Numbered from the stretch's first letter, positions 4,157 through 32,000 are shown. The stretch: 32,000 bases of DNA from Nostoc punctiforme PCC 73102 (GCF_000020025.1 NC_010631.1:1-32000), one strand, 5' to 3'. The notes: generated by a model not told the origin, from the sequence alone. Numbers and translations: made by a program.

Positions 4157-4221
4157 TTAGTTGAGCAGTGTCGTTAATTTTTCTAAAAATTAAGTTTTAA
4201 GCTAATTGGAGAAGAATTCTC

Positions 4222-15020: not shown

Positions 15021-15141
15021 GGCAATTATATAGAATCACTCAGTTCCAGTATGTTTTTCATCGAGAAACAGCATTTTATCTCAGTTAAAGATTGTTACCC
15101 CAAAGAAGATAGAATACTGTTTGGTTGAAGAGTGAGACTTA

Positions 15142-18100
15142 ATGAAAAAAACCTGGCAGCCAGAAGAATTAGTAGAGTATTGGACGCTACTCCCTCTTGA
15201 ATTAGCACTACTGAATCAGAAAAACGACGAAAATCGGTTAGGTTTTGCTATATTGCTCAAGTTTTTTGAGATTTATGCCAGATTTCCTGAGAATAATCAA
15301 GAAATCTCCCAAAATGTTGTTGATTATGTTGCCAAACTTTTAGATATTTCCCCCCAAAAGTACTCTTACTACGATTGGCAAGGACGCTCCATAAAATATC
15401 ATCGCGCTCAAATTAGAGAATTCTTTGGATTTCAAGAAACCAAAGTTAGTGATGCTTTTGAGTTAACTAATTGGTTAGCAGAACAAGCACTAATTTATGA
15501 GTTAAAATTTGAACAGCTAAAACTTGCAGCAGTAGCGAGACTACGGAATTTAAAACTTGAACCACCGACAGATTCCAGATTAGAACGTATCATTCGCTCT
15601 GCTATCAGAAATTTTGAATCTAAATTTTTTCGGGACATAACTTCCCAACTATCTAACCAATATAAAAAGTGGATAAATGATTTTTTGAAAGAGAAAGCTT
15701 CCGATCAGGAATTAGATGATACCACACAAACAAATCATGATAAACAACTGAATAATCCAGGAGATATCCAATTATCTCAACAGTTAGATGACACGAATAA
15801 CTCAGAAATAAACACTGAAGTGACTAGATTAACATGGGCTGAATTAAAAACAGACCCAGGGAGAATTGGTGTAGAAAGTTTTCAAAAGGAAGTTGCTAAA
15901 TTAGAGATTTTTGAGCAATTAGAATTACCAACAGACTTATTTAAAAACATCTCTACCAAAGTTCTCCAAGTCTATAAAAGTCGGGTAATTGTTGAACATC
16001 CTCGTGACTTACGCCGTCACCCAGAACATATTCGCTACACACTATTTACAGCTTTTTGTTGGCTCAGAAGTCAAGAAGTTATAGATAATTTAGTAGAGTT
16101 ACTCATTCAGATTGTCCATCGCATAGGTGTGAATGCAGAAAAACGTGTAGATAAAGAGCTTATTCAGGATTTTAAACGGGTTCATGGGAAGAATAATCTA
16201 CTATACCAAATGGCAGAAGCTTCCTTGAAAACACCTGATGGCACAGTCAAGGATGTGATTTTTCCTGTAGTAAGTGAAGTGACTCTCAAGAATTTAGTGA
16301 AAGAGTATAAATCTACAGGGAATGCTTACCGTGAGAAAGTTTATACGGTGATGCGCTCTTCTTATGGTGGATATTATCGGCGAATTTTACCGTTAATTTT
16401 AAACAAGCTCGAATTTCGTTCAAATAATGAAGTTCATCGTCCAGTTATTCAAGCGATATCTTTACTAAAAAAGTATGCTGATAGTAAACAGCGTTATTAT
16501 GATGCTGGAGAAGATATACCCATTGAGGGGGTATTACGTAGTGGTTGGCAAGAAATTATATTAGAGACGGGAGCAGACGATGAAATCAAAGTTAATCGCA
16601 TTAATTATGAGTTGAGCGTGCTGCAAGCATTGAGAGAAAAGCTGAGATGCAAGGAAATATGGGTTGTAGGAGCTAATCGTTACAGAAACCCTGAAGAAGA
16701 TTTACCTGCTGATTTTGAGGCGCAAAGATTAGAATATTTCCAAGCTTTGAAACAACCATCCGATGTAGAAGTCTTTATTGCTAATTTACAGCAATCTTTG
16801 GAGCAATCATTAACTTTACTGGATAAAGGAATACCTAAAAATAGTTTAGTCACACTTAAAACGACAGGCAAAAGTCGAATTTGTGTTTCTCCTCTGAATC
16901 CTCAAAATGAACCGACTAATTTGACTAGGTTGAAAACTGAAATTACTAGGCGTTGGCGCATGACTAGCCTCTTAGATATTCTGAAAGAGACTGATTTGCG
17001 AGTTAAGTTTAGCCAACACTTTCAGAGTGTATCAACACGAGAGGTTTTAGGCGAATATACTTTACAAAAACGCTTGCTACTTTGTTTATATGGTTTAGGA
17101 ACGAATACTGGATTAAAGCGTTTAAGTGATGAGATTAAAGGCGACAATTATCAAGATTTACTCCATGTTAAGCGTCATTTTATTCAGAAAGAACAATTAC
17201 GTAATGCTATTGCCTGTATTGCAAATGCAATTTTTACTGCCAGAATTTCTACTATTTGGGGAGAGGGTACAACCGCCTGTGCTTCTGACTCGAAAAAGTT
17301 TGGTGCTTGGGATCAAAACTTAATGACTGAGTGGCACATCCGTTATGGTGGAAGAGGTGTGATGATTTATTGGCACGTTGAGAAGAATTCTGTTTGTATT
17401 TATTCACAGTTAAAAACTTGTTCTTCTTCTGAAGTGGCAGCCATGATTGAAGGATTATTACGCCACTGTACTGAGATGAAAGTGGAGACAAATTATGTGG
17501 ATAGTCACGGTCAAAATGAAGTGGCTTTTGCTTTCTGTCATTTACTGGGTTTTCAGTTAATGCCGCGTCTTAAACGTATCAATGTTCAGAAATTATACCG
17601 TCCTTCAACTGGAAATAATGATGCTTATCCAAACTTGCAACCTATTTTAACTCGCGCTATTAATTGGGATTTAATTCGCCAACAATACGACCAAATGGTG
17701 AAGTATGCTACTGCTTTGCGTTTGGGTATGGCAGAAACTGAAGCCATCTTAAAGCGTTTTACTAGGGGTAATTTATTACACCCTACTTATCAAGCCTTGG
17801 CGGAATTGGGCAAGGCTGTAAAAACTATATTTTTATGTAAATACCTGCATTCGGTTGAACTGCGACAAGAGATAAATGCTGGACTCAACGTGGTGGAGAA
17901 CTGGAATAGTGCTAACAGTTTTATTTTTTACGGCAAGGGTGGGGAGATTGCTACTAATCGTTTGTCTGACCAAGAATTAGCTGTGTTATCTCTGCATTTA
18001 CTCCAGATATCTTTGGTATATATAAATACGTTGATGATTCAGGAGGTTTTGTCCCAACCACAATGGATGAAGTTGATGAAGTTGGAGGATTTGCGGGCGC

Positions 18101-18186
18101 TTTCGCCTTTAATTTGGGGTCACGTTAATCCCTATGGTACTTTTCGTTTGGATCTTAATGTCAGGTTGCCAATTGAGACGGGGTAA
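15142..18186 (+). CDS. tnpA: Tn3-family DDE transposase, 1014 aa
   Basis: Size plus Tn3-type motifs [16 protein letters not shown] and [27 protein letters not shown]. Confidence 0.95.
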
Positions 18187-18253: not shown

Positions 18254-18302
18254 TACTTTCAGCCTATCTTGCCCCTGGTGACAGCTTCGCTATATTTACC
18301 CC
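18254..18302. repeat. Right terminal inverted repeat of the Tn3-family transposon
   Basis: Exact reverse complement of 13480-13528. Confidence 0.9.
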
Positions 18303-19145
18303 AATTTGAGCGAGATTAAAATGCCGATCGTTCTCCAAACCAAAGCTTAAAGTCAACACTTGACGCTGAATCGGTGTCAATGGTTCTAATAATTTAACTA
18401 CGTCTTGCGATAGAAGTTCTTGGGTGAGTAGTTTCTCTGGTAAAACACCAACGTCTGTTAAAATTTCGCCCAATTCTGTTTCTTGCTCATCTCCCACTTT
18501 TTTATTTAAGGAAATGGCTGTACGAGAGGCACTGAGATATTCTCGAAGCTTATCGGGGCTGATATTTAAAGATGCAGCTATTTCTTCAGCAGTGGCATGG
18601 TGACCGAGTTTTAGAAAGCTTTCTCGCTGTACTTTCTTAATTTTATTAAGAATTTCGGTTAGATGCACAGGCAATCTAATAGTGCGGGATTGTTCTGCAA
18701 TTGCTCTGGTTATTGCTTGACTAATCCACCAGTAGGCGTAAGTTGATAGCTTATAGCCCCGGTTGGGATCAAACTTTTCTATACCCCTTTGCAAACCGAT
18801 TGCTCCTTCTTGGATCAAATCTAAAAATTCCAAATTGCGGTTCTGATACTTCTTGGCAACAGAAACTACCAGCCGCAGGTTAGCTGTCACCATTTTTTGT
18901 TTAGCTTTTTGACCAAGGTGTAGCGCTGCTCGGACTTGTGTCTCAGTTTGAGCGACAGCATTGGCTAATTCTGTCATTGTTGGTTCCCGGTCTAGCTGTT
19001 GGATGAGTTCATTTTTGGATTGCTCAATCGCAATCATTTGTTGTACCTGTCTACCATAAGCAATTTCTTCCTCTGGCTTTAATAAAGGATACTGACCAAT
19101 TTCTTGTAAATAGATGCGAACCATGTCTGAACTGAGGCTGGACAT
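18264..19145 (-). pseudogene. Sigma-70 family (group 2-like) sigma factor truncated by the transposon insertion. Native part is 18303-19145 (281 aa); the last 12 codons and stop come from the transposon inverted repeat.
   Basis: Region 1.2 (YLQEIGQYPLLKPEEE) and region 2 ([61 protein letters not shown]) are intact. The tail VNIAKLSPGAR is a translation of the inverted repeat. Confidence 0.85.
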
Positions 19146-19235
19146 ACAAACTTTTCGACTTTTTTAAACCAGGGAATTTAAAAGTATAAATCAGATAGTT
19201 CATTGAAGTTTTCTATTTTTAATAGTCAAAACATA

Positions 19236-21482
19236 TTACCAATCTAGTCCAGCATGAAGTAACCTCTGCTGTAACCGTGTGTAGCGCTGTTGGTCATCGG
19301 TAGAACGCACCGCTAAAGATATCGCTTTTTTTGCGCCAACCACGATCGCTAATTTCTTGGCACGGGTCAGCCCGGTGTAAAACAGGTTCCGGGTCAACAT
19401 CATATAGTGCTGCATGTAGATTGGCACAATCACCACTAGATATTCTGACCCCTGGCTTTTATGAATAGTCACGCACCATGCTAGGGCAATTTCATTCAGG
19501 TCAGCGTAATCATAAATGACAGTCCGCTCACCATATTGCACTGTAACTTCTTGCTCAATAGTATCAATGGTGAGGATTATTCCTAAATCGCCATTGAAGA
19601 CTTCGCGGTTGTAGTCGTTGGTTAGTTGGATGATGCGATCGCCCTCTCGCAACAAATTTCCACCTCTGTTAATCTCCACTTTGTTGGGGCTGGGCGGATT
19701 AATCAACTGCTGCAATACGGTATTTAGGTTGCGAGTCCCAACTACACCCCGCGTCATTGGGCAAAGTACCTGAACATCAGTAGCCGGATTAAAACCTAAG
19801 CGGGGAATTAAATCTGTGATTAATTCACAGATTGCTTGTACTCCATGTTCCGGCTGATGTCCGCCGCCGTGCCAAATACAATCAGACACGGGATTATCAG
19901 AAATTGGCTCGATTGTGGGATACTGCCCTCTATTAATTTGGTGAGCAGCAGTGATAATTGCACTGGTTTGGGCTTGGCGAAATATCTGAGTTAACCGCAC
20001 CACAGGAACTCGCCCCGAATTAATCAGGTCAGCGAGTATTTGACCTGGCCCTACTGACGGCAACTGGTCAATGTCACCTACCAATAACAGTAGAGCGCCA
20101 GCCAATACTGCTTTAACTAAAGAGTAAGCTAGAAACAAGTCAAGCATCGATGCTTCGTCAGCAATAATTGCCGTGTGGGGTAAAGGATTTTCGTTATCGC
20201 GCTTGAAACCCATTGAGCGGGGATCAAATTCTAACAAGCGATGAATAGTTTTAGCTTCCAGCCCCGTCATTTCACCCAAGCGTTGAGCAGCCCGTCCCGT
20301 AGGTGCAGCCAGGGCAATAGATTTACCCATTGCTTTCCAAAGTGAGACAATAGTATGGGTAGTGAAAGTTTTTCCAACGCCAGGGCCACCAGTGAGGATT
20401 GTGATTTTGGAATAAGCTGCTGTTTCTACTGCCAAGCGTTGCTGTTCTGAAAGCTGAATTTGACGGCTAGTGGTGAAGCGCTCAATCCAGGCGCGGACGC
20501 GGGGAATGTCAGTATCAACAGGCTTTTCTAAACGTTGGCGGATCAGTTGAGCTAAATTCTGTTCCGTATGAAAATAAGTCGGCTTGTAGCAAAGTAGTGT
20601 TTTTTCTTCATCCCGCTCTCTAATCAGCTCGTCTGCGAGAGCCATATCTTTAATAACTATCGCTACCGCTTCTTCTGTGGGCTGGTGAGATTCGGTAGTC
20701 AGTAGTTTGATTACCGACTCAATCAATTCGCTTTGTGGCAAGTAACAGTGGCCATCTTCGGCAGCAACACTAAGGCAATGGATAATCCCCGCACGGTAAC
20801 GAAATTCTGAGTCAGGGGCAATTCCGATATTTCTTGCAATCTTGTCAGCAGTCAGAAAGCCAATACCGTAGATGTCGGCTGCTAACTGGTAGGGATTTTT
20901 GGTAACAGTGGCGATCGCTTCATCTTTATATTGCTTGTAAATCTTTACAGCATAAGTGGTAGAAACGCCATGCCCCTGGAGAAACACCATAACTTCTTTG
21001 ATCGCTTTTTGAGTTTCCCAGGCGTTTTTAATGAGAGTGATCCGCTTTTTGGCAATACCCTGGACTTCAATCAGTCGTTCAATCTGATTTTCGATGATGT
21101 CGAGCGTTTCTAAACCGAAGTGAGCGACGATACGCTTGGCTGTTACTGGGCCAACACTTTTAATCAGCCCACTACCCAAATATTTTTCAATTCCAGTGAG
21201 AGTAGCTGGTTTGGTTTCTTTGTAGTTGACTACTTGGAATTGGGGGCCAAATTGTGGATGGTCACGCCAGAAACCAGTTAGTTGTAAGGTCTGCCCTGGC
21301 TGAATGTTAGCAAAGCTGCCAACGATTGTTGTGAGTTCGTTGCTACGCGGACGAGTCAGCCTTGCCACAGTGTAGCCTGACTCAGCAGAGTAAAAAGTTA
21401 AACGTTCTACGACTCCGATGATTGTTTCGTGTTGAGGTAAGGCACTTATTTGTTGAGCGGAAAGATTAGGAGGAGTGAACAT
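19236..21482 (-). CDS. recD2: RecD/TraA-family SF1B DNA helicase (RecD2-like), 748 aa
   Basis: Walker A GGPGVGKT, motif II IIADEASMLD and motif III LLLVGDIDQLPSVGPG. HhH-like GIGFLTADKIA. Two HIP1 sites. Confidence 0.9.
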   Translation of the reverse strand: MFTPPNLSAQQISALPQHETIIGVVERLTFYSAESGYTVARLTRPRSNELTTIVGSFANIQPGQTLQLTGFWRDHPQFGPQFQVVNYKETKPATLTGIEKYLGSGLIKSVGPVTAKRIVAHFGLETLDIIENQIERLIEVQGIAKKRITLIKNAWETQKAIKEVMVFLQGHGVSTTYAVKIYKQYKDEAIATVTKNPYQLAADIYGIGFLTADKIARNIGIAPDSEFRYRAGIIHCLSVAAEDGHCYLPQSELIESVIKLLTTESHQPTEEAVAIVIKDMALADELIRERDEEKTLLCYKPTYFHTEQNLAQLIRQRLEKPVDTDIPRVRAWIERFTTSRQIQLSEQQRLAVETAAYSKITILTGGPGVGKTFTTHTIVSLWKAMGKSIALAAPTGRAAQRLGEMTGLEAKTIHRLLEFDPRSMGFKRDNENPLPHTAIIADEASMLDLFLAYSLVKAVLAGALLLLVGDIDQLPSVGPGQILADLINSGRVPVVRLTQIFRQAQTSAIITAAHQINRGQYPTIEPISDNPVSDCIWHGGGHQPEHGVQAICELITDLIPRLGFNPATDVQVLCPMTRGVVGTRNLNTVLQQLINPPSPNKVEINRGGNLLREGDRIIQLTNDYNREVFNGDLGIILTIDTIEQEVTVQYGERTVIYDYADLNEIALAWCVTIHKSQGSEYLVVIVPIYMQHYMMLTRNLFYTGLTRAKKLAIVVGAKKAISLAVRSTDDQQRYTRLQQRLLHAGLDW

Positions 21483-21890: not shown

Positions 21891-22667
21891 GTGAGCCTTA
21901 TCATTTGTTTATTTAATCAAGCTGGTGGAGTTGGGAAATCCACTCTAGCGATTAATCTTGGTTATCACTTAGCACAATTAAAGCCTGCTAAAACCAAGCA
22001 TCACTACCGAGTTCTTTTAATTGATATAGATCCTCAAGCTTCACTTACTAACTTTATGGGAATTGTGCCTGAATCCCAAGAAAAAACCATTTATAATGCA
22101 GTGATTGATCAGGAAGCACTACCAATTCTTAAAGAAATTCATGGGATGGATTTTGTTCCGTCATCTCAGGATCTGACTTCAGCTGAATTAGAGTTAGTAG
22201 TAGCAGATATGCGTGATTTACGTCTTAAATATGCTTTGGAACCTGTAAGCGAACAGTATGATTTTATTTTGATTGACTGCCCCCCTAGTTTAGGCATTCT
22301 TACTTATATCAGTTTAGTGGCATCAACTCACGTTTTAGTGCCGATCCAGACGCAATACAAGGCATTCTTGGGGACAGAATTACTCTTAAATACAGTAACA
22401 CGCGTTAAGTCTCTTCCAAATCGAAAGCTAAAAATTGCTGGGTTTATCCCAACGATGTTTGATTCACGTAATAGCCAAGATGAACGAACACTATTAGCTA
22501 TTCAAGAACAATTGTCACAGGTTGGGATAGTCTATGACCCAATTCCTCGATCTACTGCTTTTGCTGATGCTGCTGAAGAAAATGTTCCTTTGGCAATCTT
22601 TAATCCTAAGCATCCAGCTTTATCAATCCTAAAAAAAATTGTTAAAGGGCTCGAGAAATTATTATGA
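21891..22667 (+). CDS. parA: ParA-family partition ATPase
   Basis: GTG start. Deviant Walker A NQAGGVGKST. Typical size of 258 aa. ATGA overlap with parB. Confidence 0.9.
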   Translation: MSLIICLFNQAGGVGKSTLAINLGYHLAQLKPAKTKHHYRVLLIDIDPQASLTNFMGIVPESQEKTIYNAVIDQEALPILKEIHGMDFVPSSQDLTSAELELVVADMRDLRLKYALEPVSEQYDFILIDCPPSLGILTYISLVASTHVLVPIQTQYKAFLGTELLLNTVTRVKSLPNRKLKIAGFIPTMFDSRNSQDERTLLAIQEQLSQVGIVYDPIPRSTAFADAAEENVPLAIFNPKHPALSILKKIVKGLEKLL

Positions 22668-23587
22668 GTATAAAGCGTGACAAGCCTTATGGTCGCCGTC
22701 TTAAGGGATTAGAAGCTTTGATTGGGGAGTCTGTTGACACTGTTCCCTGTGGACAGTTTGTCACTATCGAAAAAATCCAACTCTCTGTTCAGCAGCCTCG
22801 CCGTTATTTTGATCCAAAAAAGCTAGAGCAGTTAGTACAGTCGGTTAAAGAACATGGCATCTTAGAACCATTGTTAGTCCGTTATTTATCTAACGATAAA
22901 TATGAGTTGGTAGCTGGAGAGAGGCGTTACAGAGCAGCTAGTTTAGCAGGATTAACTGAAGTACCTGTAATTGCACGTTCCTTGAATGATCAGGAAGCCC
23001 TGCAACTGTCATTAGTAGAAAATTTACAGCGAGACGATCTCAATCCTATTGAAGAAACAGAAGGTATTTTAGAACTTATAGCACTTCAACTAGATAAGAG
23101 AGTGCCAGAAGTTATATCTTTACTTTATAAAATGCAAAATATTTTGGCGGGAAAAGTTACTGATAACGTTATCAGTAATTCTGATGCAGAGGATGTAAAA
23201 ATGATTTTTACAGGCTTGGGGCTTATGGAATGGGAGTCGTTCACTGCTAACAGACTTCCTCTCTTGCGGTTGCCTGATGAAATTTTAGAAGTTCTACGCC
23301 AAGGAAAAATTGAATACACAAAAGCTAAAGTAATCGCTAAGTTGAAAGAAAAGACAGAACGTATTGCTTTATTGGAAGAGGCGATATTACAAAATTTATC
23401 ACTAAATGAAATTCGAGAACGCTTGAAAACCCGTAAGTCGTCAACAGAAGAGAAGGAATTAGAGAAGCAAATAGATTCTACCTATAAGAAAATGAAAAAA
23501 TCAAAGCTATGGGATAATCCCAAAAAGCGCAAGAAGCTTGAATTATTGTTTGCTCAAATAGAAATTTTAATTAACGAGGATGATTAA
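22664..23587 (+). CDS. parB: ParB/Spo0J-family partition protein
   Basis: ParB N-terminal domain motifs ILEPLLVR and YELVAGERRYRAA. Confidence 0.9.
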   Translation: MSIKRDKPYGRRLKGLEALIGESVDTVPCGQFVTIEKIQLSVQQPRRYFDPKKLEQLVQSVKEHGILEPLLVRYLSNDKYELVAGERRYRAASLAGLTEVPVIARSLNDQEALQLSLVENLQRDDLNPIEETEGILELIALQLDKRVPEVISLLYKMQNILAGKVTDNVISNSDAEDVKMIFTGLGLMEWESFTANRLPLLRLPDEILEVLRQGKIEYTKAKVIAKLKEKTERIALLEEAILQNLSLNEIRERLKTRKSSTEEKELEKQIDSTYKKMKKSKLWDNPKKRKKLELLFAQIEILINEDD

Positions 23588-24781: not shown

Positions 24782-24896
24782 CTTGCAAGGAAATAAATTG
24801 CTAACAAAGACATAGATAGTAGAGTATAAATCAAAGAGTCAACCATCTAAATTAATTTCTGCTGCGTTGATAAAAAAGATTTCAAAAATTCTTATT

Positions 24897-25043
24897 GGGG
24901 GCTACATGGGGGCTATATATACCCCAACAATAGTTCAGGATTTTTGGGATATTTTGACCCCTATATAGGGTGTATATAGGTGCTAAGTAGGGTATATTTG
25001 ACTAATTAATATTTTATACCCCATTTAGCCCCCAAGGGGTTAT
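24897..25043. promoter_or_regulatory. parC-like centromere candidate. At least 7 copies, in both orientations, of a GGGG(C)TATATA-type motif upstream of the ParM-like gene.
   Basis: GGGGGCTACAT (24897-24907), GGGGGCTATATATACCCC (24908-24925), CCCCTATATAGGG (24958-24970), GGGTGTATATAGG (24968-24980), GGGTATATTT (24990-24999), TTTATACCCC (25013-25022) and TAGCCCCC/AAGGGGTTAT (25026-25043). Confidence 0.5.
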
Positions 25044-25160: not shown

Positions 25161-26120
25161 ATGTCAAACATTCACACGTTGCAAAAAATTTTTCCTGCGG
25201 GTTTCGATAACGGTTACGGAAGCCTCAAACTTTTAGTCGATGGCTTTGAAGTAGTTCGTGTCCCCAGCTATATAACTAATGCCGAGATGGAAGATGTTCC
25301 AGGGCGCGTAGTTTTTAACGGTACTGCTTACACAGTTGGAGAGTCAGCTTACCGGACAGGGAATTATTTTGACCGCAACACAGACAATAATGAAAATAAA
25401 GTCAACAACGCATTATTGACTTTATTGGGTGCATTGGCACATCTACCACACCGTAAAGCTTGGCACTTAAAATTAGTCGTCAGCTTACATGATGTCGGTC
25501 TGGCTGAAGAATTACAAAAAGTACTCAATGGAGAATATCAGCCAATACTTGCTGGCAAACAATCAGACGTAAAAGTAGAAGTGCTGAAAGTTGTACTAGA
25601 GGGTATGGGTGCATTGTTTGGGCATCCACTACCAAAAAAATTAACCATTTTAGACTTTGGCAATGGAACAACCCTGTATTCTCGTTATAACCGGGGTCAG
25701 CGAGAAGTTCATACTGCTTACCCCATTGGTGTAGAAGTTCTCATCGATGATATTTCCCAAAAAATGAAACATTTGAATGGCGGAAAAATCGGAGATCCAT
25801 CCAAAATCCGATTTTGTTTGGAAATGGGGCATACCCGATACAGCCGTGACATCGATATCAAAGATATATACAGTGCTTCTTTGAAAGATTGGTATGAAAA
25901 ATACTTGAAGAAAGTGGTGAATCTGACATTGGATGCCAAGCACCAGGGGGATGAAATCTGGGCGATTGGTGGAGGCTGCCTCTTACCAGGATTTAAGAAG
26001 CTATTGGAGAAAAACGGCTTCAAAATCCTGGACAATCCGGTAGAAGCCAATGTCTCTGGGCTTTTAGAGATGGCAAAAACCATTAACAGTAAGAACCCAA
26101 CTACTACATCTTTTAAGTAA
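25161..26120 (+). CDS. parM: Actin-like segregation ATPase (ParM/StbA family)
   Basis: Actin-fold motifs GFDNGYGSLKL (phosphate 1), ILDFGNGTTLYS (phosphate 2) and IWAIGGGCLL (adenosine). 319 aa. Confidence 0.7.
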   Translation: MSNIHTLQKIFPAGFDNGYGSLKLLVDGFEVVRVPSYITNAEMEDVPGRVVFNGTAYTVGESAYRTGNYFDRNTDNNENKVNNALLTLLGALAHLPHRKAWHLKLVVSLHDVGLAEELQKVLNGEYQPILAGKQSDVKVEVLKVVLEGMGALFGHPLPKKLTILDFGNGTTLYSRYNRGQREVHTAYPIGVEVLIDDISQKMKHLNGGKIGDPSKIRFCLEMGHTRYSRDIDIKDIYSASLKDWYEKYLKKVVNLTLDAKHQGDEIWAIGGGCLLPGFKKLLEKNGFKILDNPVEANVSGLLEMAKTINSKNPTTTSFK

Positions 26121-26130
26121 AGTTATAACA

Positions 26131-26424
26131 ATGGCAGATAAAAAAGACTTAGCACCGGAAAAAATTCGCCTCAAAGATAATTACCGAGAGCGCATATTTG
26201 CAGAATCGCAAAAACTAGATAAAAGCTACCTGGACACCCTTTACTTTATCGTTGATTGCTATTTTGTTTTCATCAAGGCTGGATTACCTGCACAACTTTT
26301 ACCTTCCCCACCTATTAATACGGAATCAAACCAACTCACGTCTTGGACTGCAACTCCATTTCCAGAGGAGAAAGAAGAAGAAGATTCTTCAGGGGAAACA
26401 TTCAGCCTTGATTTTGATTTGTAA
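26131..26424 (+). CDS. Candidate ParR-like adaptor, 97 aa, with an acidic C-terminal tail (EEKEEEDSSGETFSLDFDL)
   Basis: Lies 10 nt downstream of the ParM-like gene in the canonical parC-parM-parR order. There is no sequence-family evidence. Confidence 0.4.
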   Translation: MADKKDLAPEKIRLKDNYRERIFAESQKLDKSYLDTLYFIVDCYFVFIKAGLPAQLLPSPPINTESNQLTSWTATPFPEEKEEEDSSGETFSLDFDL

Positions 26425-26638: not shown

Positions 26639-26896
26639 ATGAACGTTTCTCTGACCATAGAACTGGAAAAGTGGGTGCAATCCAAAGTTGAAAGCGGTAT
26701 GTACACTTCGGCTAGTGAAGTGATCCGTGAAGGTCTGCGCCTGCTCAAAGACCAGGATGCCCTCAAAGCAATACGCCTTGCCGAGTTAGGTAGGGAGATA
26801 CAGCAGGGGATTGATAGCGGAGAATCTACACCGCTAAACATGGATGAAATTATCGAATTGGCGAAACAACAACGGCAGACGAGAGAATCCCCATAA
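26639..26896 (+). CDS. parD: ParD-family type II antitoxin (CC2985/ParD1-3-4 type)
   Basis: The N-terminus MNVSLTIELEKWVQSKVESGMYTSASEVIREGLRLLKDQD is family-typical. Confidence 0.85.
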   Translation: MNVSLTIELEKWVQSKVESGMYTSASEVIREGLRLLKDQDALKAIRLAELGREIQQGIDSGESTPLNMDEIIELAKQQRQTRESP

Positions 26897-27198
26897 TGGC
26901 GACAATTCTTATAAAACCGTTAGCACAAGCTGATTTATTGGATATTTGGAATTTTATTGCCAGTGACAGCTTTGATAAAGCAGATCAGCTTCTAAAAAAA
27001 ATAGACAGTCAGCTTAAAATGTTGGCATCAAACCCCGGTATGGGAAGAAAACGCGATTCCTTAACACCAAATCTGCGGAGTTTTCCAGTAGGGAATTATC
27101 TAATTTTCTACCGGACTATAAACCAAGGTATTGAAGTCATTCGTGTTATACATGGGGCAAGAGACATTCAAAGCCTTTTTGAAAAAGATGATGAGTAA
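26896..27198 (+). CDS. parE: ParE/RelE-family type II toxin
   Basis: 1-nt overlap with parD. Family pattern A..DL..IW.FIA ... YLIFYR...GIEVIRVIHGARD. Confidence 0.85.
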   Translation: MATILIKPLAQADLLDIWNFIASDSFDKADQLLKKIDSQLKMLASNPGMGRKRDSLTPNLRSFPVGNYLIFYRTINQGIEVIRVIHGARDIQSLFEKDDE

Positions 27199-27367: not shown

Positions 27368-30300
27368 CTATCTTTGTAAGTCTACTTGTTGTGTTTGAGA
27401 TTTAGCTAATATTTTATCAATTTGAGTATTAACATCCTCAAAAGTTTGCAATATCTGTGGAGTTAGTTTATTAGTCTGTAGCTGACCAGATTGCAAGTTG
27501 AAAATTACCTCCCCATCTTTCTGCGAAATAATTAAATCTCTCTGCTGGGTATTAAAAGCCAAATCATAAATCTTCCCTTGAACTTGAGTACCATTTTCAT
27601 CAGACTTACCCCAGACCATGCCAATCCTTTGAGCAATTTGAGTCAACCGACTGATGGCTTCAAGCTCAGATGTATCATTATTCATTGCTGTCAGCGCTTG
27701 GGCTGAGAATTGCTTACTAACTTTAAACTGATTGGCGACTTCCACAATGCGTTTTTTGTAATTTTCCGGCTTCCCTAACTTATCGGCGGCATTGTACCAT
27801 TTTCTCAAGTCATCAATAGTAACTGTTGGGGGCTTATCGATCCCTAGAGATTCGGTTTTTGCACTATTAGTAATATCTAGTGTGGGAGGATTAGTCGTCA
27901 GTGACAGCTTTGTATCTTTATTAGTATTAGGTGCAGTTTTAGTACTTTGTTGAGATAAAGGCAGTGGCGGTTGTTCTGAAGGTTTCAAAAATTGCGGTCG
28001 TGTGGCGAGGGAGTTAATTTTTTGTTGATATTCATTACTTGATTCAATCACAGCCCCAAATTTCTTAGTCATGCTCTCCAAAGTTTTGGCAGGGATAGAG
28101 CTATCAACCAGGTGAAATACCGCTAGACCTTTTTTGGTTTCCCCGATCGCATTTTCTATTGGTACTTGCTGATATTCAACATTTTGATTCTTTAACCATT
28201 GAGTAACAGTATCAGCTTTGTGATTGTCAACAGCCAAGCCCATAACTCCAAGTTTTTTGTTTGATTGGGTAGAAAATAAGAAAGTAGGACGTTCTTTAAT
28301 TTGCTGTAGAATTGGCTCACTACTATCAATCATCTGCTGTTGTTGAGGGTTAACTGATTGAGTCCCAAAAGCCTGAAATTCCTTCGTCCATTTCTGGGGA
28401 TATTCAACGGTATTAGGGTCAATTTGAGCGCAAATCACTGAGAAATTACTTTGAAGGATCGCAGGCGCAGGTGTCAGTTGTCCGGTTTTGAGTAGTCCAA
28501 GCTGTCTGAGCGCGTCTTTGTCTTTCTTAAAATGTAATACCCCCAAGGGTTCACCATTGAGAAATACTGCATCTCTAGTTTTTAAAGGTGGCGTTTCGAT
28601 AGTCAGTTTTCGGTAATCTCGATCCGAGAATGACTGACCAGAAAAATCATAAAAGTTGATTTTATTGATTTTGAGGAGATTCCCATTGGGGGACTCACCC
28701 AGCACAAAAGCTTGATCTCCAGCTTCAGAGATAGAAGTAAGTTTCAACTTCAGGGGATTACCATTTTTTAGGTAATCAACTTGTTTTAACTGCTGGATAG
28801 AATCACTGTCTAACTCACCCAGAGTCAAAGCATCAAGTTTGATTTTTACTGTTTTATCAGGAATCGGCACAGTGCCAAATTCTAAGTTTATGGGTTCGGC
28901 GTTAAAAACAAGTCCTGCATAAGAGAAGTTCTTAAGTTCGCGGATAGTAATTTCAACCGGCTCGTTTCCTGGTAGTCCAATAGTTACTTTGGCAGTAGCA
29001 GGTTCTAGCCCAATGAAATTAGCTTGCGCCTTTGTGCCAATTGGTAACATTCCAGCCCTGGTTTCGAGCATGGCGAATTCCTTATATTCGCCGTCAGCAT
29101 CCTGGACAAACATTAGCCTAGAAACGTGGCGTTCATGTCCCAGTGGGTGATGGCTAGCCCTGATTTCTATAGGATGTTTTTCATGAGCGTTCCAGTCTCG
29201 ACCCAAAAATTGATTCGCTTCATTATTTAATGTGACTAACTTCGGTTCGCTAAATTGCAGTTCCTCCAAGCGGGAGATAATCTCATTGGCGAAAGCAGCG
29301 AAGGCAAAATTAGAGACTTTTTTAGCGATCGCTTGGGGATTTGCGTTTTCTTTTCTTGCAACTTCAAGTTCATCTTGGCGGGATGCACAGATGTTCCAAG
29401 CGGCGGCGGCGGATGCAAGTTTTTCTGACTCTGGGATCGAGGCGTAAAATACTTCAGCCGCATCATTTGCCAAGGCAAAGAGTAGTTTAGTTTGGCTTCT
29501 GGTAAGTTCTGGTTTTAGTTCTAAGAGTTTAGCTCTTTGCGTGGTTATCCCCGCCTTGAGGTTGTGGTCAGTTACAGATTGCTGGCTAACTGTTCCCAAC
29601 TGACGGTATACAGGTTTTCCATCTTTATCGATTTCTCCATTAATCTGGGCGACTGCTAGTAATTTGTGGGGGCGTTCGCTACTTGTAAATTTAATTTCTT
29701 CTAGGCGAATGTTAAGTGTCTGGGCTTTCCAGATTAGGGGATGCCCGTAACGAGTTAGATTGGTAATTTCGAGTTGGCAAGACTGTGGAGTTTGGATGAT
29801 TGCTGATGGCCCCTTCTCGGTTTCCCGCCGTCGCTCCATACGTACCGCAGCGTTGAACTTCAGATCGAACTCGTACTTCGCAGCGATCGCTGCAAATTTT
29901 TGTTGTGGTGTAAATTCTACTCCTTTGAATAAGTCTTTAAACTGGACTATGGGACGCGATTCTAACTGTGATTGCTGGAAATATTTATTGGTTTGGCTAA
30001 TCAATAATTCTACTGGTGAGTAGCCCTTTGGTGTTATACCTGTGCTTAAATAAACTGAACGCGACTTTTTATCTTTAATATAGTTAACATCACGATACAA
30101 GTAGCGGTTGTTTTCCCTGATTTTATCCATCTCAGGTTTTTTAGCACTTTTGAATAAATCAACCGCTATTTGGTTTTGATAACACCCCTCACCAATCATT
30201 TCTCGGTACATCAGGCGGTTAACATCCATCGCCTGTTGAATATTTTCTGGGGTTCTTTCATCCAAAGCAAGTTCAACAAACCCTTGTATATAAGGCTTGT

Positions 30301-32000
30301 ATTCTTCTCGAATTAACTTTGGCTCTTTCTGGCGTTCTTGCTCAAACAGGGTTTCGTAATGGTTAGAAACTTGGTCTAAATAACTTGATTTCTGCTCAAA
30401 AGTACCGTAAGTCTTTAGGATTTCTATTTCTGATTCTAGAGCTTCCAATGCAGTAACTTGATTATTAATCACTCCCACGCTGATGCTATCGCTCATGTGG
30501 ATGGCGATTTTTTCAAAAGGCGGCTGGATTCCAGTTTCAGGATCGTAGAATGATTGTTTTGTGAGCTTAACTGTAGGGGAATAGGCGTTTTGGGGAAGAT
30601 TTCTTCGCTCTGCCTCTGCTGTTAAATTAGGATATAAGCTAGCTCTTGCCACACCAATGCAGTCACCATCGTAGTCTCGTGCTTGGCGTTCTGATTCAGT
30701 TTCTGCTGGATCTATTTCTTCAACATCAATCCCTTGCGCTTCTAACTCTGTAATTCTGGCTTGTATGCGCTTGTGGTCTTCGTCATTGACTACAATTATG
30801 CCTTTGAGGTCTTTACCATCTGGCCCGAGTCGATCTTTAACGTGCTTGTTAGCAGACACACACAATCCGTTAGAATTCAGAAAAGGAGAACGGAAGTTAA
30901 GAATTTTCTCTTCATTCTTTTCCCATGAAACACAGATTTCACCATTTTTTAAATCTTTGGATGGAATAATCATCCCTCGGTCAAAAGTAAGCGTTTTCCC
31001 TAAAGCGATATCTCGCCATTGGCTCTGTACAAACCGACTTAATTCCTGTTTAACTTTTTCCGTTTCTAATAACTGCTGATGACCCAACAAGTCAGCTTTG
31101 ATGAGCTTGTACATGAACAAGTCATCTTTAGTACCCTCGTCATCTAATTCTTCATCTGCATCTAAGTCATCATTTGTCCCTAAGTTTTTAACATCTGCTT
31201 CAAGGCTAGTAAGTTCTCCTATTTTTAATTTACTTTGGTTCAATGATTCTTTGCGTTTTTCATATTTTTCACAATAGTCAGCAGCAACTATTCTTGGGTC
31301 ATCTTGAATAGAGGCTAGTTTTTCAGCTTGTAGCTCTAATTCTTCGGCAAAATCTTTAATTCCTTGGGGGAAAGATGCTAAGAGTTGAGAGATAGACATT
31401 TGACCTTGCTGTGATTGTCCTTTTTCAGCCAACCAAATATTTTGCTGATATAATCCTGGCTTAATCTGTGGTTTAGTCGCCCTTGTTGGTCTGTCCTTAT
31501 CTGTTCCCTTAAAACTACTTATGGGGAGAATTATATCTATTTTTGGTTTATTTTTAGGATCTGCATATTTGATTTTATCAAGCTTGTATGGTCGCAGTGT
31601 CCCTTTTCCAAAACGATATTTAGTAGTATCTTCTCCGTCTCCTTCTACCCAACCAAATCGATGCTGAATAACACGGTAGCTTTTATCTTGCTGTGATTGT
31701 CTTAAAGTTAGCTTGTCATAAAGTTGGGTTGAAATTTGTCCATAACAGTCACCAACTAGTTTATATGCTAAATCATTTGATAATATTCCTCCGTTTTCAC
31801 CCCTGTTTTCAGTAGAATCATCTACTACCAAAATGTTTAGCTTTTCGTGAATCGCATTTTTACAATTCCCCAGGAAGATGGAACCATAAGCACCCCTGTC
31901 TTTACTGTCTGGACAAATTTTTTGAATCGTTTCTAAACATTCTTTTTCTCCATAAAGTAAGCGGGTCTTAGAAGATAATAATAAAATGTATCCATCTGGA
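27368..32000 (-). CDS. Giant protein (more than 1540 aa, 5' end outside the window) with an N-terminal two-barrel RdRP/YonO-like RNA polymerase motif set. The C-terminal ~900 aa are unassigned.
   Basis: The reading frame stays open from 31831 to 32000 (PDGYILLLSSKTRLLYGEKECLETIQKICPDSKDRGAYGSIFLGNCKNAIHEKLNI precedes the listed TTG). Motifs: GDCYGQIS (31730-31753), IQHRFG...RFGKGTL (31595-31666), FRSPFLNSNGLCV (30857-30895), DYDGD (30662-30676) and AVDLFKSAKK (30137-30166). Confidence 0.65.
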   Translation of the reverse strand, partial: PDGYILLLSSKTRLLYGEKECLETIQKICPDSKDRGAYGSIFLGNCKNAIHEKLNILVVDDSTENRGENGGILSNDLAYKLVGDCYGQISTQLYDKLTLRQSQQDKSYRVIQHRFGWVEGDGEDTTKYRFGKGTLRPYKLDKIKYADPKNKPKIDIILPISSFKGTDKDRPTRATKPQIKPGLYQQNIWLAEKGQSQQGQMSISQLLASFPQGIKDFAEELELQAEKLASIQDDPRIVAADYCEKYEKRKESLNQSKLKIGELTSLEADVKNLGTNDDLDADEELDDEGTKDDLFMYKLIKADLLGHQQLLETEKVKQELSRFVQSQWRDIALGKTLTFDRGMIIPSKDLKNGEICVSWEKNEEKILNFRSPFLNSNGLCVSANKHVKDRLGPDGKDLKGIIVVNDEDHKRIQARITELEAQGIDVEEIDPAETESERQARDYDGDCIGVARASLYPNLTAEAERRNLPQNAYSPTVKLTKQSFYDPETGIQPPFEKIAIHMSDSISVGVINNQVTALEALESEIEILKTYGTFEQKSSYLDQVSNHYETLFEQERQKEPKLIREEYKPYIQGFVELALDERTPENIQQAMDVNRLMYREMIGEGCYQNQIAVDLFKSAKKPEMDKIRENNRYLYRDVNYIKDKKSRSVYLSTGITPKGYSPVELLISQTNKYFQQSQLESRPIVQFKDLFKGVEFTPQQKFAAIAAKYEFDLKFNAAVRMERRRETEKGPSAIIQTPQSCQLEITNLTRYGHPLIWKAQTLNIRLEEIKFTSSERPHKLLAVAQINGEIDKDGKPVYRQLGTVSQQSVTDHNLKAGITTQRAKLLELKPELTRSQTKLLFALANDAAEVFYASIPESEKLASAAAAWNICASRQDELEVARKENANPQAIAKKVSNFAFAAFANEIISRLEELQFSEPKLVTLNNEANQFLGRDWNAHEKHPIEIRASHHPLGHERHVSRLMFVQDADGEYKEFAMLETRAGMLPIGTKAQANFIGLEPATAKVTIGLPGNEPVEITIRELKNFSYAGLVFNAEPINLEFGTVPIPDKTVKIKLDALTLGELDSDSIQQLKQVDYLKNGNPLKLKLTSISEAGDQAFVLGESPNGNLLKINKINFYDFSGQSFSDRDYRKLTIETPPLKTRDAVFLNGEPLGVLHFKKDKDALRQLGLLKTGQLTPAPAILQSNFSVICAQIDPNTVEYPQKWTKEFQAFGTQSVNPQQQQMIDSSEPILQQIKERPTFLFSTQSNKKLGVMGLAVDNHKADTVTQWLKNQNVEYQQVPIENAIGETKKGLAVFHLVDSSIPAKTLESMTKKFGAVIESSNEYQQKINSLATRPQFLKPSEQPPLPLSQQSTKTAPNTNKDTKLSLTTNPPTLDITNSAKTESLGIDKPPTVTIDDLRKWYNAADKLGKPENYKKRIVEVANQFKVSKQFSAQALTAMNNDTSELEAISRLTQIAQRIGMVWGKSDENGTQVQGKIYDLAFNTQQRDLIISQKDGEVIFNLQSGQLQTNKLTPQILQTFEDVNTQIDKILAKSQTQQVDLQR

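What the first reader, a model, noticed from the sequence alone, without database searches (positions are those of the whole stretch)
27368..32000. Plasmid-borne giant ORF with the full motif series of two-barrel (eukaryotic-RdRP / YonO-type) RNA polymerases
Five short motifs occur in the N-terminal ~570 residues. Their order and approximate spacing match what I recall for cell-encoded RNA-dependent RNA polymerases (Pfam RdRP PF05183; QDE-1/RDR proteins).
- D-x-x-G-x-I-S: GDCYGQIS here, versus SDGIGKIS-type.
- The first barrel lysine motif Q-x-R-(F/Y)-G...KG: IQHRFG...RFGKGTL here, versus FQIRYGGYKGV.
- R-x-P: FRSPFLNSNG here, versus RNPCLHPGD.
- The metal-binding D-x-D-G-D: DYDGD, as in NADFDGD of the beta-prime subunit and DLDGD of RdRPs.
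- A-V-D-x-x-K: AVDLFKSAKK here, versus AVDFPKTG.

In prokaryotic mobile elements this fold is known mainly from phage proteins (YonO of SPbeta, the crAss-like phage virion RNAP), not from plasmid backbones. Here it sits directly beside the plasmid stability modules (parDE, parMR, parAB). No Rep, DnaG-type, AEP or PriCT primase is recognisable anywhere in the 32 kb.

The ~900 residues C-terminal to the polymerase motifs have no recognisable motif. Possible roles are a replication primase, an autonomous plasmid transcriptase, or an RNA-amplifying conflict system.
Basis: partly seen in the sequence, partly recalled or inferred. Interest (0 to 1): 0.85.

Follow-up and report, generated by a model that had tools for sequence, protein, structure and literature searches.

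The report
Two-barrel RNA polymerase on cyanobacterial plasmids
A giant gene on a Nostoc-type plasmid encodes a single-chain RNA polymerase built like the enzymes that amplify silencing RNAs in plants and fungi. It usually lies next to the plasmid's DNA-transfer genes and probably makes RNA primers on plasmid DNA. Earlier computational papers noted the family, but nobody has tested it.

Summary
A minus-strand ORF ends at a stop codon at 27368-27370 and stays open to the window edge. It has 1543 codons in the window; orthologues have about 1596 aa, so only about 64 N-terminal residues are missing. All five motifs are present, and they are the best-conserved columns across more than 100 divergent family representatives.

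No sequence search recognises the protein: Pfam (including PF05183), NCBIfam, PHROGs, PDB sequence profiles and hhalign against YonO all fail. An AlphaFold model of residues 1-820 (pLDDT 85) matches RDR2 and QDE-1 first, then the largest subunits of cellular RNA polymerases, and phage 'RdRP'-type proteins at E 7.6e-11. The two-barrel polymerase reading is therefore supported.

The fold assignment is not new. Papers from 2010 and 2012 already list cyanobacterial RdRP/YonO-like proteins, mention RNase H fusions and propose a primase role.

New here:
- The family sits on large cyanobacterial plasmids.
- In 56 of 68 informative loci a relaxase (MOBV, MOBF or MOBP) lies 0.8-8.8 kb upstream. Other clades have ssb or parAB there instead.
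- Relatives are fused to PrimPol-PriCT2, RecD-like helicase, RNase H or SLOG/NADAR domains.

Best guess: an RNA-priming polymerase of the plasmid transfer and replication module. This is inferred, not shown.

The parts
27368..32000 (-). Giant ORF, truncated at its 5' end by the window edge. Stop codon at 27368-27370; 1543 codons at 27371-31999.
   Evidence: Orthologues of 1596 aa show about 64 residues missing.
31385..31867 (-). First (beta-like) double-psi barrel region, residues about 45-205. It carries GDCYGQIS (31730-31753), IQHRFG (31652-31669), RFGKGTL (31595-31615) and SSFKG (31505-31519).
   Evidence: The model shows strands at 48-59, 86-90, 111-122, 129-138, 156-159 and 182-195. Barrel boundaries are approximate, taken from the secondary-structure string only.
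30995..31384 (-). Long helical hairpin (residues about 206-335) between the two barrels, with a disordered acidic loop at 257-289.
   Evidence: helices 215-258 and 287-333; pLDDT below 50 at 257-289.
30635..30994 (-). Second (beta-prime-like) double-psi barrel region, residues about 336-455. It carries FRSPFLNSNG (30866-30895) and the metal-binding DYDGD (30662-30676). A helical insert of about 30 aa (409-421) separates them.
   Evidence: R370, P372, D442, D444, G445 and D446 are near-invariant. Divergent relatives and YonO lack the insert.
29810..30634 (-). Helical domain, residues about 456-730. It includes the long helix 584-616 and AVDLFKSAKK (30137-30166).
   Evidence: Q610, D614, K617 and S618 conserved. 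It is part of the roughly 800-column Foldseek alignments to RDR2 and QDE-1.
27371..29809 (-). C-terminal half, residues about 731-1543. The model shows beta-rich domains, an alpha/beta domain, a disordered Pro/Gln/Thr-rich linker and a terminal helix plus beta-meander domain. Function is unknown.
   Evidence: Model pLDDT 71. There is no Pfam hit and no significant PDB fold match. Homologues are limited to close relatives. Relatives replace or extend this region with other domains.
26639..27198 (+). parD-parE toxin-antitoxin pair, convergent with the giant ORF.
   Evidence: PF03693, PF05016.
25161..26424 (+). ParM-like actin-type partition ATPase plus a small downstream ORF that is a candidate ParR.
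   Evidence: PF17989. The same arrangement occurs on pNsp_c.
21891..23587 (+). ParA-ParB partition pair.
18264..21482 (-). RecD2/YrrC-type SF1 helicase (19236-21482) and a sigma-70 family factor (18264-19145). These are backbone neighbours, also collinear on pNsp_c.
   Evidence: It is uncertain whether they belong to the same functional unit. RecD-like helicase domains are fused to the polymerase in distant relatives.

Best explanation
**Shown.** The ORF encodes a single-chain polymerase of the two-double-psi-barrel fold.
- Its first barrel supplies conserved basic residues (K132, K164, R114/R129) and D84.
- Its second barrel supplies R370-x-P372 and the Asp triad D442/D444/D446, which binds catalytic Mg2+ in all known members of this fold.
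- Conservation of these residues across the family indicates an active enzyme.
- The family is confined, as far as named members show, to cyanobacteria, mostly on large plasmids.
- In most loci the gene lies in a fixed position a few kb from a conjugative relaxase gene. A small divergent ORF lies 48 bp upstream of it.

**Inferred.** The enzyme is part of the plasmid's DNA-transfer-and-replication module. It synthesises RNA de novo on single-stranded plasmid DNA.
- Its most likely role is to prime complementary-strand synthesis of the transferred strand. It may also transcribe early genes from that strand.
- This would make it a functional analogue, not a homologue, of the transferred conjugative primases Sog and TraC and of virion-delivered phage RNA polymerases.
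- SSB would coat the template. In some relatives a fused RNase H would trim the RNA:DNA hybrid to a primer, and a fused PrimPol or RecD-like helicase would extend or unwind.
- The variable C-terminal half would carry partner-binding or delivery functions.

It is unknown whether the protein itself passes through the type IV secretion system.
For: **Fold and active site.**
- The model has pLDDT 85.
- Foldseek top hits are RDR2 and QDE-1, followed by the largest subunits of multisubunit RNA polymerases. Phage RdRP-like proteins match at E 7.6e-11.
- Catalytic residues are conserved in 97-100% of cluster representatives.
- They fit the eight invariant positions defined for two-barrel polymerases: QDE-1 D709, R738, K743, R962, P964, D1007, D1009 and D1011 (PMC2919709).

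**Plasmid location.** 78 cyanobacterial plasmids carry a homologue, and 53 of them are typed conjugative or mobilizable.

**Link to relaxases.**
- Of 68 loci with at least 8 kb of upstream sequence, 56 have a relaxase homologue 0.8-8.8 kb upstream and none has one downstream. Over all 100 loci, 60 have one: 31 MOBV, 17 MOBF and 12 MOBP.
- MOBF and MOBV both occur next to polymerases of one close cluster, so the relaxase has been swapped while the position was kept.
- Subfamilies at about 30% identity also have Mob_Pre/MobV upstream or a coupling protein nearby.
- On pANACY.02 the gene lies beside the relaxase at 69-79 kb. The plasmid's own replisome cluster (parAB, ssb, holA, gamma/tau, dnaN, PrimPol) lies at 102-125 kb.

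**ssb upstream in other clades.** This is seen in Gloeothece and Jaaginema.

**Fusions in relatives.**
- PrimPol plus PriCT-2
- RNase H, PF00075, E 2.5e-37
- RecD-like SF1 helicase
- SLOG, NADAR and DUF4326

**Shared domain with relaxases.** A domain of about 110 aa from MOBP relaxases recurs inside the Pseudanabaena polymerases (BLASTP E 2e-10).

**Precedent.** A primase role for RdRP-like enzymes of selfish elements, and RNA:DNA hybrids for the cyanobacterial RNase H fusions, were proposed in PMC3417536. Transferred primases and the N4 virion polymerase are described in PMC5512222.
Against: - There is no biochemical or genetic evidence of any kind. Template (DNA or RNA), product and timing are unknown.
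- Clustering of mob, par and rep backbone genes is common on plasmids, so proximity to a relaxase does not by itself separate transfer from vegetative replication.
- In the Scytonema-type subfamily the gene is followed directly by parA-parB-SNF2 with no relaxase within 10 kb. That is the classical position of a rep gene.
- Twelve of the 68 informative loci lack a detectable relaxase upstream.
- In MOBP loci the gene is co-directional with the relaxase and downstream of it. If usual oriT rules apply it would enter the recipient last, so the protein would have to be transferred or act later.
- The loci surveyed are phylogenetically close, so the counts are not independent events.
- The window itself ends before the upstream region. 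A relaxase next to this particular copy is inferred from relatives only.
- I could not inspect model coordinates, so the spatial clustering of the conserved residues is not verified.
Confidence: 0.45

Rival explanations
1. Vegetative replication initiator or primase. The polymerase transcribes at or near the plasmid origin and forms an R-loop or primer, as host RNA polymerase plus RNase H do for ColE1 and as T7 and mitochondrial RNA polymerases do at their origins. It would then be the replicon-specific 'Rep' of these large plasmids.
For: - Different large plasmids of one strain each carry their own copy, for example five plasmids of Nostoc C052 and three of ATCC 53789.
- The gene lies among par genes in the window. 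In the Scytonema-type subfamily it sits immediately upstream of parA-parB.
- No conventional Rep domain was found in the window ORFs scanned.
- Fusions to PrimPol-PriCT2 and RNase H, and holA/holB next to the Gloeothece gene, fit replication.
Against: - On pANACY.02 the gene goes with the relaxase, 27 kb from the parAB-ssb-pol III-PrimPol cluster.
- Several host plasmids are assigned a MOB-suite replicon cluster. This suggests a separate Rep, although I could not locate those loci.
- Among the matches listed, pCC7120alpha is the only PCC 7120 plasmid; 18 matching records were not listed.
- Fusions to SLOG, NADAR and DUF4326 domains are not typical of initiators.
Confidence: 0.22
2. Dedicated plasmid transcriptase. 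Like YonO of SPbeta, it would be a DNA-dependent RNA polymerase that transcribes a specific set of plasmid genes, for example transfer or leading-region genes, independently of the host enzyme.
For: - It has the same fold class as YonO, which transcribes late SPbeta genes (PMC5467207).
- Its motifs resemble YonO's: RSPHL/RSPFL and DNDGD/DYDGD.
- Forrest et al. speculated that cyanobacterial YonO-like proteins transcribe special gene sets.
- It overlaps with the main hypothesis if the early genes are read from ssDNA.
Against: - Fusions to primase, RNase H and helicase domains point to DNA synthesis and RNA:DNA hybrids rather than mRNA production.
- No conserved promoter or target operon was identified.
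- The plasmid also carries its own sigma-70 factor for the host polymerase.
- hhalign shows no detectable sequence relationship to YonO.
Confidence: 0.18
3. RNA-templated RNA polymerase in a conflict or regulatory system. Like eukaryotic RdRPs, it would copy or amplify RNAs, for example antisense RNAs controlling plasmid or invader genes.
For: - The nearest solved structures are cellular RdRPs.
- Some relatives are fused to conflict-type domains: NADAR, SLOG and DUF4326.
- An AIPR abortive-infection gene is present in the window and near the orthologues.
Against: - No Argonaute, Dicer-like or other RNA-guided partner is a conserved neighbour.
- The conserved neighbours are DNA-handling genes.
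- The RNase H fusions imply DNA:RNA hybrids.
- QDE-1 itself also uses ssDNA templates (PMC9508822 abstract).
Confidence: 0.06
4. Two-barrel DNA polymerase. Like archaeal PolD, the core would polymerise dNTPs and act as a plasmid DNA polymerase or DNA primase.
For: PolD shows that the two-barrel core can be a DNA polymerase (PMC7708050 and PMC4996933 abstracts).
Against: PolD is not among the top 50 fold matches; RdRPs and RNA polymerases are. The RNase H fusions imply an RNA product.
Confidence: 0.03

Closest known systems
Cellular RNA-dependent RNA polymerases (QDE-1 of Neurospora; plant RDR2)
   Same: - They are the best structural matches over about 800 aligned columns.
- Both are single chains with the two barrels in the same order.
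- They share DxDGD (QDE-1 has DYDGD), R-x-P, Q-x-R...K-G and AVDxxK-type motifs.
- QDE-1 also works on ssDNA together with an SSB-type protein and a helicase.
   Different: - No sequence-profile similarity is detectable; PF05183 is not matched.
- TM-scores are only about 0.3.
- The barrel-1 Q-x-R and K-G motifs are split by a hairpin of about 14 residues. Barrel 2 carries a helical insert of about 30 residues.
- The host is bacterial and plasmid-borne, with no RNAi partners.
- It has an unrelated C-terminal extension of about 800 aa.
YonO of Bacillus prophage SPbeta and phage YonO-like or 'RdRP'-annotated proteins
   Same: - Both are prokaryotic mobile-element, single-chain two-barrel polymerases.
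- YonO has the same motif order: SAGQIR, VKG, RSPHL, DNDGD.
- Phage relatives are the best hits in the viral structure library, at E 7.6e-11.
- The literature places a cyanobacterial family among the YonO-like proteins.
   Different: - hhalign of the family profile against YonO finds nothing, and tblastn against 50,697 phage records gives no match.
- YonO is 839 aa and is encoded among phage genes. This protein is about 1600 aa and sits on plasmids beside relaxase and par genes.
crAss-like phage virion RNA polymerase (phi14:2 gp66) and phage N4 virion RNA polymerase
   Same: They are giant polymerases delivered with incoming DNA that act first on it. gp66 has the same two-barrel fold class. 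N4 vRNAP uses ssDNA hairpin promoters with SSB (PMC5512222).
   Different: - The fold match to gp66 is weak (E 0.22).
- N4 vRNAP has the unrelated T7-like fold.
- Delivery of the plasmid protein to recipients is hypothetical.
Transferred conjugative primases (Sog of IncI1; TraC of RP4) and polyvalent proteins of conjugative elements
   Same: - They are encoded in or beside the relaxase module.
- They are large multidomain proteins.
- Relatives of this protein are fused to PrimPol-PriCT2 and helicase domains, which are typical of such proteins.
- The proposed role is the same: priming the transferred strand (PMC5512222).
   Different: - There is no Toprim or AEP domain in the window protein; the catalytic fold is unrelated.
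- Two-barrel polymerases are not part of the published polyvalent-protein repertoire. That paper notes a paucity of such proteins in cyanobacteria.
ColE1-type RNA-primed replication (host RNA polymerase plus RNase H)
   Same: The logic is the same: an RNA polymerase product on plasmid DNA is processed by RNase H into a primer. Gloeothece relatives fuse the polymerase to RNase H.
   Different: Here the polymerase is plasmid-encoded and has a different architecture. No origin or RNA II-like transcript has been identified.

Membership tests
Two-double-psi-barrel nucleotide polymerase superfamily | Overall fold: two DPBB domains in one catalytic core | tested here: met
   The AF2 model has pLDDT 85. 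The top Foldseek hits are almost all two-barrel polymerases, RdRPs and then the largest subunits of multisubunit RNA polymerases. Barrel topology was not inspected in coordinates.
Two-double-psi-barrel nucleotide polymerase superfamily | Metal-binding Asp triad D-x-D-x-D (DxDGD) in the beta-prime-like barrel | tested here: met
   DYDGD at residues 442-446. Conservation is D442 103/106, D444 103/106, G445 106/106 and D446 107/107.
Two-double-psi-barrel nucleotide polymerase superfamily | R-x-P motif upstream of the triad (QDE-1 R962/P964; Rpb1 R446/P448) | tested here: met
   R370-S-P372; R 116/117 and P 115/115. Reference positions are from PMC2919709.
Two-double-psi-barrel nucleotide polymerase superfamily | Acidic residue plus two basic residues in the beta-like barrel (QDE-1 D709, R738, K743) | tested here: inconclusive
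   Conserved candidates exist: D84, R114, R129, K132 and K164. The one-to-one correspondence with QDE-1 residues could not be checked without a residue-level structural alignment.
Two-double-psi-barrel nucleotide polymerase superfamily | Template-dependent nucleotide polymerisation | not testable with these tools
   This needs biochemistry.
Pfam RdRP (PF05183, eukaryotic cell-encoded RdRP) | Match to the family HMM at or above the gathering score | tested here: not met
   There is no PF05183 hit even at E<=1 for the window protein or at E<=0.01 for seven divergent relatives. Family profiles against PDB sequences do not reach RDR2 or QDE-1.
YonO-like phage/bacterial polymerases | Detectable sequence homology to YonO | tested here: not met
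   hhalign of A1 against YonO gives probability 0.4%, and tblastn against phages gives no match. Only motif-level resemblance is seen. Ruprich-Robert & Thuriaux found by PSI-BLAST, and grouped as YonO-like, a cyanobacterial family. I could not check their list because the supplement is not held.
YonO-like phage/bacterial polymerases | Structural similarity to phage single-chain two-barrel polymerases | tested here: met
   There are 11 BFVD hits at E<=1e-3. The best is 'RNA dependent RNA polymerase [Podoviridae sp.]' at E 7.6e-11.
Polyvalent / transferred proteins of conjugative elements | Encoded beside relaxase or T4SS genes | tested here: met
   56 of 68 informative loci have a relaxase upstream, and one locus has a coupling protein nearby. 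This was not observable in the window itself, which ends before the upstream region.
Polyvalent / transferred proteins of conjugative elements | Several unrelated enzymatic or effector domains in one polypeptide | tested here: inconclusive
   This is met in relatives, which carry PrimPol-PriCT2, RNase H, an SF1 helicase, SLOG, NADAR or DUF4326 domains. In the window protein only the polymerase is recognisable, and the C-terminal half is unassigned.
Polyvalent / transferred proteins of conjugative elements | Translocation into the recipient with the DNA | not testable with these tools
   This needs a Cre-fusion or similar transfer assay.
Plasmid Rep initiators / DnaG or AEP primases | Recognisable Rep, Toprim or AEP catalytic domain | tested here: not met
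   The window protein has none. An AEP domain is present only as an extra N-terminal fusion in relative P0094.

The most novel reading that the evidence does not exclude
The polymerase is a substrate of the plasmid's type IV secretion system. It enters the recipient with the transferred strand and there acts as the conjugative primase and/or first transcriptase on ssDNA. It would be the first two-barrel RNA polymerase shown to serve plasmid conjugation, and the cyanobacterial counterpart of transferred primases and polyvalent proteins. An equally unconventional reading is that it is the replicon-specific initiator of these megaplasmids. That would be a Rep of RNA-polymerase type with no precedent among plasmid initiators.
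Probability: 0.3. Interest if true: 0.8.

Novelty: new member of a known kind. Interest (0 to 1): 0.55.

Why it matters
Single-chain two-barrel polymerases are regarded as relics close to the root of all cellular RNA polymerases and of eukaryotic RNAi polymerases. Only YonO and a crAss-like phage enzyme have been studied in prokaryotes.

This family has 546 clusters at 50% identity and lies on most large plasmids of Nostoc-type cyanobacteria. All members are annotated 'hypothetical', and no database model covers it.

If it primes or transcribes transferred plasmid DNA, three things follow:
- It would reveal a third, unrelated solution to conjugative priming, besides Toprim and AEP primases.
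- It would give experimental support to the published idea that RdRP-like enzymes began as primases of selfish elements.
- It would help explain how cyanobacterial megaplasmids, whose replication and transfer are poorly understood, establish themselves. That is useful for vector design.

The fold assignment itself is not new, so the value lies in the context evidence and in making the primase hypothesis testable.

Tried and rejected
**Sequence searches that found nothing useful.**
- Pfam, NCBIfam and PHROGs on the whole protein.
- phmmer of the protein against PDB sequences.
- The family profile against PDB sequences.
- A narrower profile of the second barrel alone, which gave only chance chaperonin hits.
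- hhalign of the family profile against YonO.
- tblastn against 50,697 phage records.

**Unavailable resources.**

**C-terminal half.**
- The fold search gave only insignificant OB-like barrel matches such as ModE and Teb1 (E >= 0.025).
- jackhmmer against neighbouring genes found only split copies of the same gene.
- The 'DUF3945' and 'Ribonuclease HI' names that some sources attach to close relatives are not supported by Pfam. True RNase H domains exist only in the Gloeothece proteins.

**Neighbours.** The conserved small neighbours, including the 176-aa divergent ORF and the 133-aa ORF, have no Pfam or NCBIfam match.

**Other.**
- Rfam found no known RNA in the window.
- GC skew in the window was judged uninformative for locating an origin.
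- The window is not identical to any PLSDB plasmid. The best match is 90.5% identity to a Nostoc sp. C057 plasmid, so the missing 5' end could not be recovered from the same replicon.

**Literature not held.** Iyer, Koonin & Aravind 2003, Iyer & Aravind 2012 and the supplement of Ruprich-Robert & Thuriaux 2010 are not held. I could not check whether their cyanobacterial sequences include orthologues of this protein. The RNase H-fused Gloeothece members make this very likely.

**Rejected ideas.**
- Chance motif coincidence is ruled out by the conservation and the fold match.
- A pseudogene is ruled out by 1543 codons without a stop.
- A functional link to the nearby sigma-70 factor is unlikely, because the pairing is not conserved outside close relatives.


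Full report
**1. The observation**

The minus strand of 27368-32000 carries one long reading frame.
- Its stop codon (TAG) is at 27368-27370. The frame stays open to base 31999, giving 1543 codons with no stop.
- The TTG at 31831 that the mechanical ORF list reports as the start is internal. Orthologues align from the first window codon.
- Full-length orthologues are 1596 aa: pNsp_c of Nostoc ATCC 53789 and pCC7120alpha. About 64 N-terminal residues therefore lie beyond the window.

**2. The motifs are not chance**

- A search with the N-terminal 750 residues found 130 relatives, all cyanobacterial where named.
- A profile search of 1.84 billion cluster representatives found 546 clusters at E<=1e-3 and 286 at E<=1e-30.
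- In a 42-sequence alignment reaching 32% identity, R370, P372, D442, D444 and G445 are among the invariant columns. D84, Q112, R114, R129, K132, G133 and D446 are nearly invariant. Q610, D614 and K617 are also invariant.
- Across 105-119 representatives that cover each position, these residues are kept in 93-100% of cases.
- A further motif, SSFKG (K164 113/114), belongs to the same set.

**3. What sequence methods say**

They say nothing.
- Pfam (including PF05183), NCBIfam, PHROGs and PDB sequence searches give no meaningful hit for the protein, its profile or a sub-profile of the second barrel.
- hhalign against YonO, whose sequence I took from the SPbeta record, is also negative.
- By eye, YonO shows the same series in the same order: SAGQIR, VKG, RSPHL, DNDGD.

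**4. What structure says**

- AlphaFold2 on the alignment gives a confident model of residues 1-820, with pLDDT 85 and pTM 0.74. It has two six-stranded beta regions (about 45-205 and 336-455), separated by a long helical hairpin and followed by a helical domain.
- Foldseek against the PDB returns Arabidopsis RDR2 (two entries), maize RDR2 and QDE-1 as the only hits below E 1e-3. Each alignment spans about 800 columns. Nearly all further hits are largest subunits of Pol IV, Pol II, Pol I and bacterial, archaeal and plastid polymerases.
- Against predicted viral structures the best hits are phage proteins annotated as RNA-dependent RNA polymerase (E 7.6e-11) and crAss-like phage proteins.
- The two-barrel polymerase fold is therefore well supported, with eukaryotic-type RdRPs and phage YonO-like proteins as nearest neighbours.
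- TM-scores are low (about 0.3-0.4), as expected for multidomain proteins with different inserts.

**5. The C-terminal half**

- Residues about 731-1543 have no Pfam match and no significant fold match.
- The model suggests beta-rich domains, an alpha/beta domain, a disordered linker and a terminal helix plus beta-meander domain.
- This half is conserved only among close relatives.
- In other family members it is replaced or extended by:
  - RNase H, in the Gloeothece PCC 7424 protein of 2805 aa (PF00075, E 2.5e-37)
  - RecD-like SF1 helicase (P0282, P0235)
  - cpYpsA or YAcAr SLOG, DUF4326 and NADAR domains (P0193, P0281)
- One relative has PrimPol plus PriCT-2 at the N-terminus (P0094).

**6. 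Where the gene lives**

- tblastn finds it on 78 cyanobacterial plasmids of 120-880 kb (Nostoc, Tolypothrix, Calothrix, Gloeothece, Pseudanabaena, Chroococcidiopsis and others). Several plasmids of one strain often carry it. 53 of the 78 are typed conjugative or mobilizable.
- In the window it is flanked by parDE, ParM, ParA/ParB, a RecD2-type helicase and a sigma-70 factor. This layout is collinear with pNsp_c.

**7. Conserved neighbours**

I compared 100 loci, made up of 15 annotated plasmid regions, 80 genome contigs and some metagenome contigs.
- A small divergent ORF of 176 aa with no known domain lies 48 bp (median) upstream in 72 loci.
- A relaxase homologue lies upstream in 60 loci and never downstream.
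- Among the 68 loci with at least 8 kb of upstream sequence, 56 have a relaxase at 0.8-8.8 kb, median 4.8 kb.
- Three unrelated relaxase families are involved: MOBV 31, MOBF 17 and MOBP 12. MOBF and MOBV both occur next to polymerases of one close cluster. The relaxase has therefore been exchanged while the arrangement persisted.
- More distant subfamilies show the following:
  - Mob_Pre/MobV upstream
  - a coupling protein nearby
  - ssb one or two genes upstream
  - in one subfamily, parA-parB-SNF2 directly downstream
- On pANACY.02 the polymerase sits next to the relaxase at 69-79 kb. A plasmid-borne replisome set (parAB, ssb, holA, a DNA polymerase domain protein, gamma/tau, dnaN, PrimPol) lies at 102-125 kb and the T4SS at 135-148 kb.
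- A domain of about 110 aa that follows the nuclease domain of the MOBP relaxases recurs inside the Pseudanabaena polymerases (BLASTP E 2e-10).

**8. Interpretation**

Shown: the fold, the conserved active-site residues, plasmid residence, linkage to relaxase, ssb and par genes, and the fusion partners.

Inferred: the enzyme makes RNA on single-stranded plasmid DNA as part of the DNA-transfer-and-replication module.
- Its most likely role is priming complementary-strand synthesis after conjugation, and possibly transcribing early genes.
- SSB would coat the template. The fused RNase H, PrimPol or helicase modules in relatives would process, extend or unwind.
- This makes it an analogue of the transferred primases Sog and TraC and of virion-delivered polymerases (PMC5512222).
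- I give this 0.45.

The main rival, at 0.22, is an origin-priming 'Rep' function. The rep-like position next to parAB in one subfamily and the occurrence on several plasmids of one strain favour it. The pANACY.02 layout and the conflict-type fusions count against it. A YonO-like dedicated transcriptase (0.18), an RNA-templated amplifier (0.06) and a PolD-like DNA polymerase (0.03) remain possible.

**9. Comparison with the literature**

[quoted passage not shown] They defined the eight invariant residues of two-barrel polymerases, treated the cyanobacterial proteins as one of five families, and called their role an enigma (PMC2919709).
- Forrest et al. 2017 repeat this (PMC5467207).
- Aravind et al. 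2012, citing Iyer & Aravind, state that the cyanobacterial versions may be combined with RNase H. They take this to suggest action on RNA-DNA hybrids, and propose that RdRP-like enzymes of selfish elements probably acted as primases (PMC3417536).
- The RNase H-fused Gloeothece proteins belong to the present family, so the family and the primase idea are already published.
- I found no paper that places the family on conjugative plasmid backbones or links it to relaxases.
- The polyvalent-protein survey does not include two-barrel polymerases, and it notes a paucity of such proteins in cyanobacteria.

**10. Verdict**

- The novelty is moderate: this is a member of a computationally known but experimentally untouched family.
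- The new context evidence sharpens the primase hypothesis and makes it testable.
- Interest: 0.55.

Noticed in passing
window 18264-21482 (-): A plasmid-borne sigma-70 family factor (18264-19145) lies next to a RecD2/YrrC-type helicase (19236-21482). The same pair is collinear on pNsp_c (L001 23734-27022), and both gene kinds also occur on pANACY.02.
   Followed up: partly
window 14106-18186 (+): A tyrosine recombinase (14106-15020) is followed by a Tn3-family transposase (15142-18186). This is a likely transposon insertion in the plasmid backbone. A DDE transposase also lies at 4750-6102.
   Followed up: no
window 10571-11836 (-); L002 8928-10130: An AIPR (abortive-infection-type) protein is present. 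AIPR genes also lie a few kb from the polymerase gene on pCC7120alpha and elsewhere on pANACY.02.
   Followed up: no
L001 7430-7584: At least six copies of an 11-bp iteron (GCGCCAGAGTT) lie in the 570-bp gap between the divergent MobF relaxase and ParM genes. This is a parC-like centromere and the probable oriT-side region.
   Followed up: partly
NC_020157.1 (pANACY.02) 102-125 kb = L105 17240-39951: This cyanobacterial plasmid carries its own replisome set: parAB, ssb, holA, a DNA-polymerase-domain protein, pol III gamma/tau, dnaN and a PrimPol. A ThiF/E2/JAB ubiquitin-like system lies among these genes.
   Followed up: no
L007 and L010 polymerase residues about 1040-1160; L011 relaxase residues 190-303; L004 relaxase residues 184-295: An unnamed domain of about 110 aa follows the PF03432 nuclease domain in MOBP relaxases, with two copies in some. 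It recurs inside the Pseudanabaena polymerases (BLASTP E 2e-10). Only weak winged-helix hints were found, and it was not detected in the window protein.
   Followed up: partly
divergent family members (sequences): Two distant members have NADTDGD, close to the NADFDGD of beta-prime. They have only about 40 residues between R-S-P and the Asp triad, as in YonO. The window subfamily has an extra helical insert of about 30 residues there.
   Followed up: partly
L001 11231-11761 (-) and equivalents; just beyond window base 32000: A conserved divergent ORF of about 176 aa lies 48 bp upstream of the polymerase gene in 72 of 100 loci. It has no Pfam or NCBIfam family, only a weak Myb/SANT-like hint at E 0.003. 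It is a candidate regulator or partner.
   Followed up: partly
window 68-4527 (+): A run of same-strand ORFs has no Pfam family. The 513-aa ORF at 2298-3839 shows only a weak P-loop resemblance to TrbB/VirB11-type ATPases (E 5e-4, far below cut-off).
   Followed up: no
window 24895-25035: A 17-nt inverted repeat (94% complementary, arms 107 nt apart) lies upstream of the ParM gene. It is a candidate centromere or operator.
   Followed up: no
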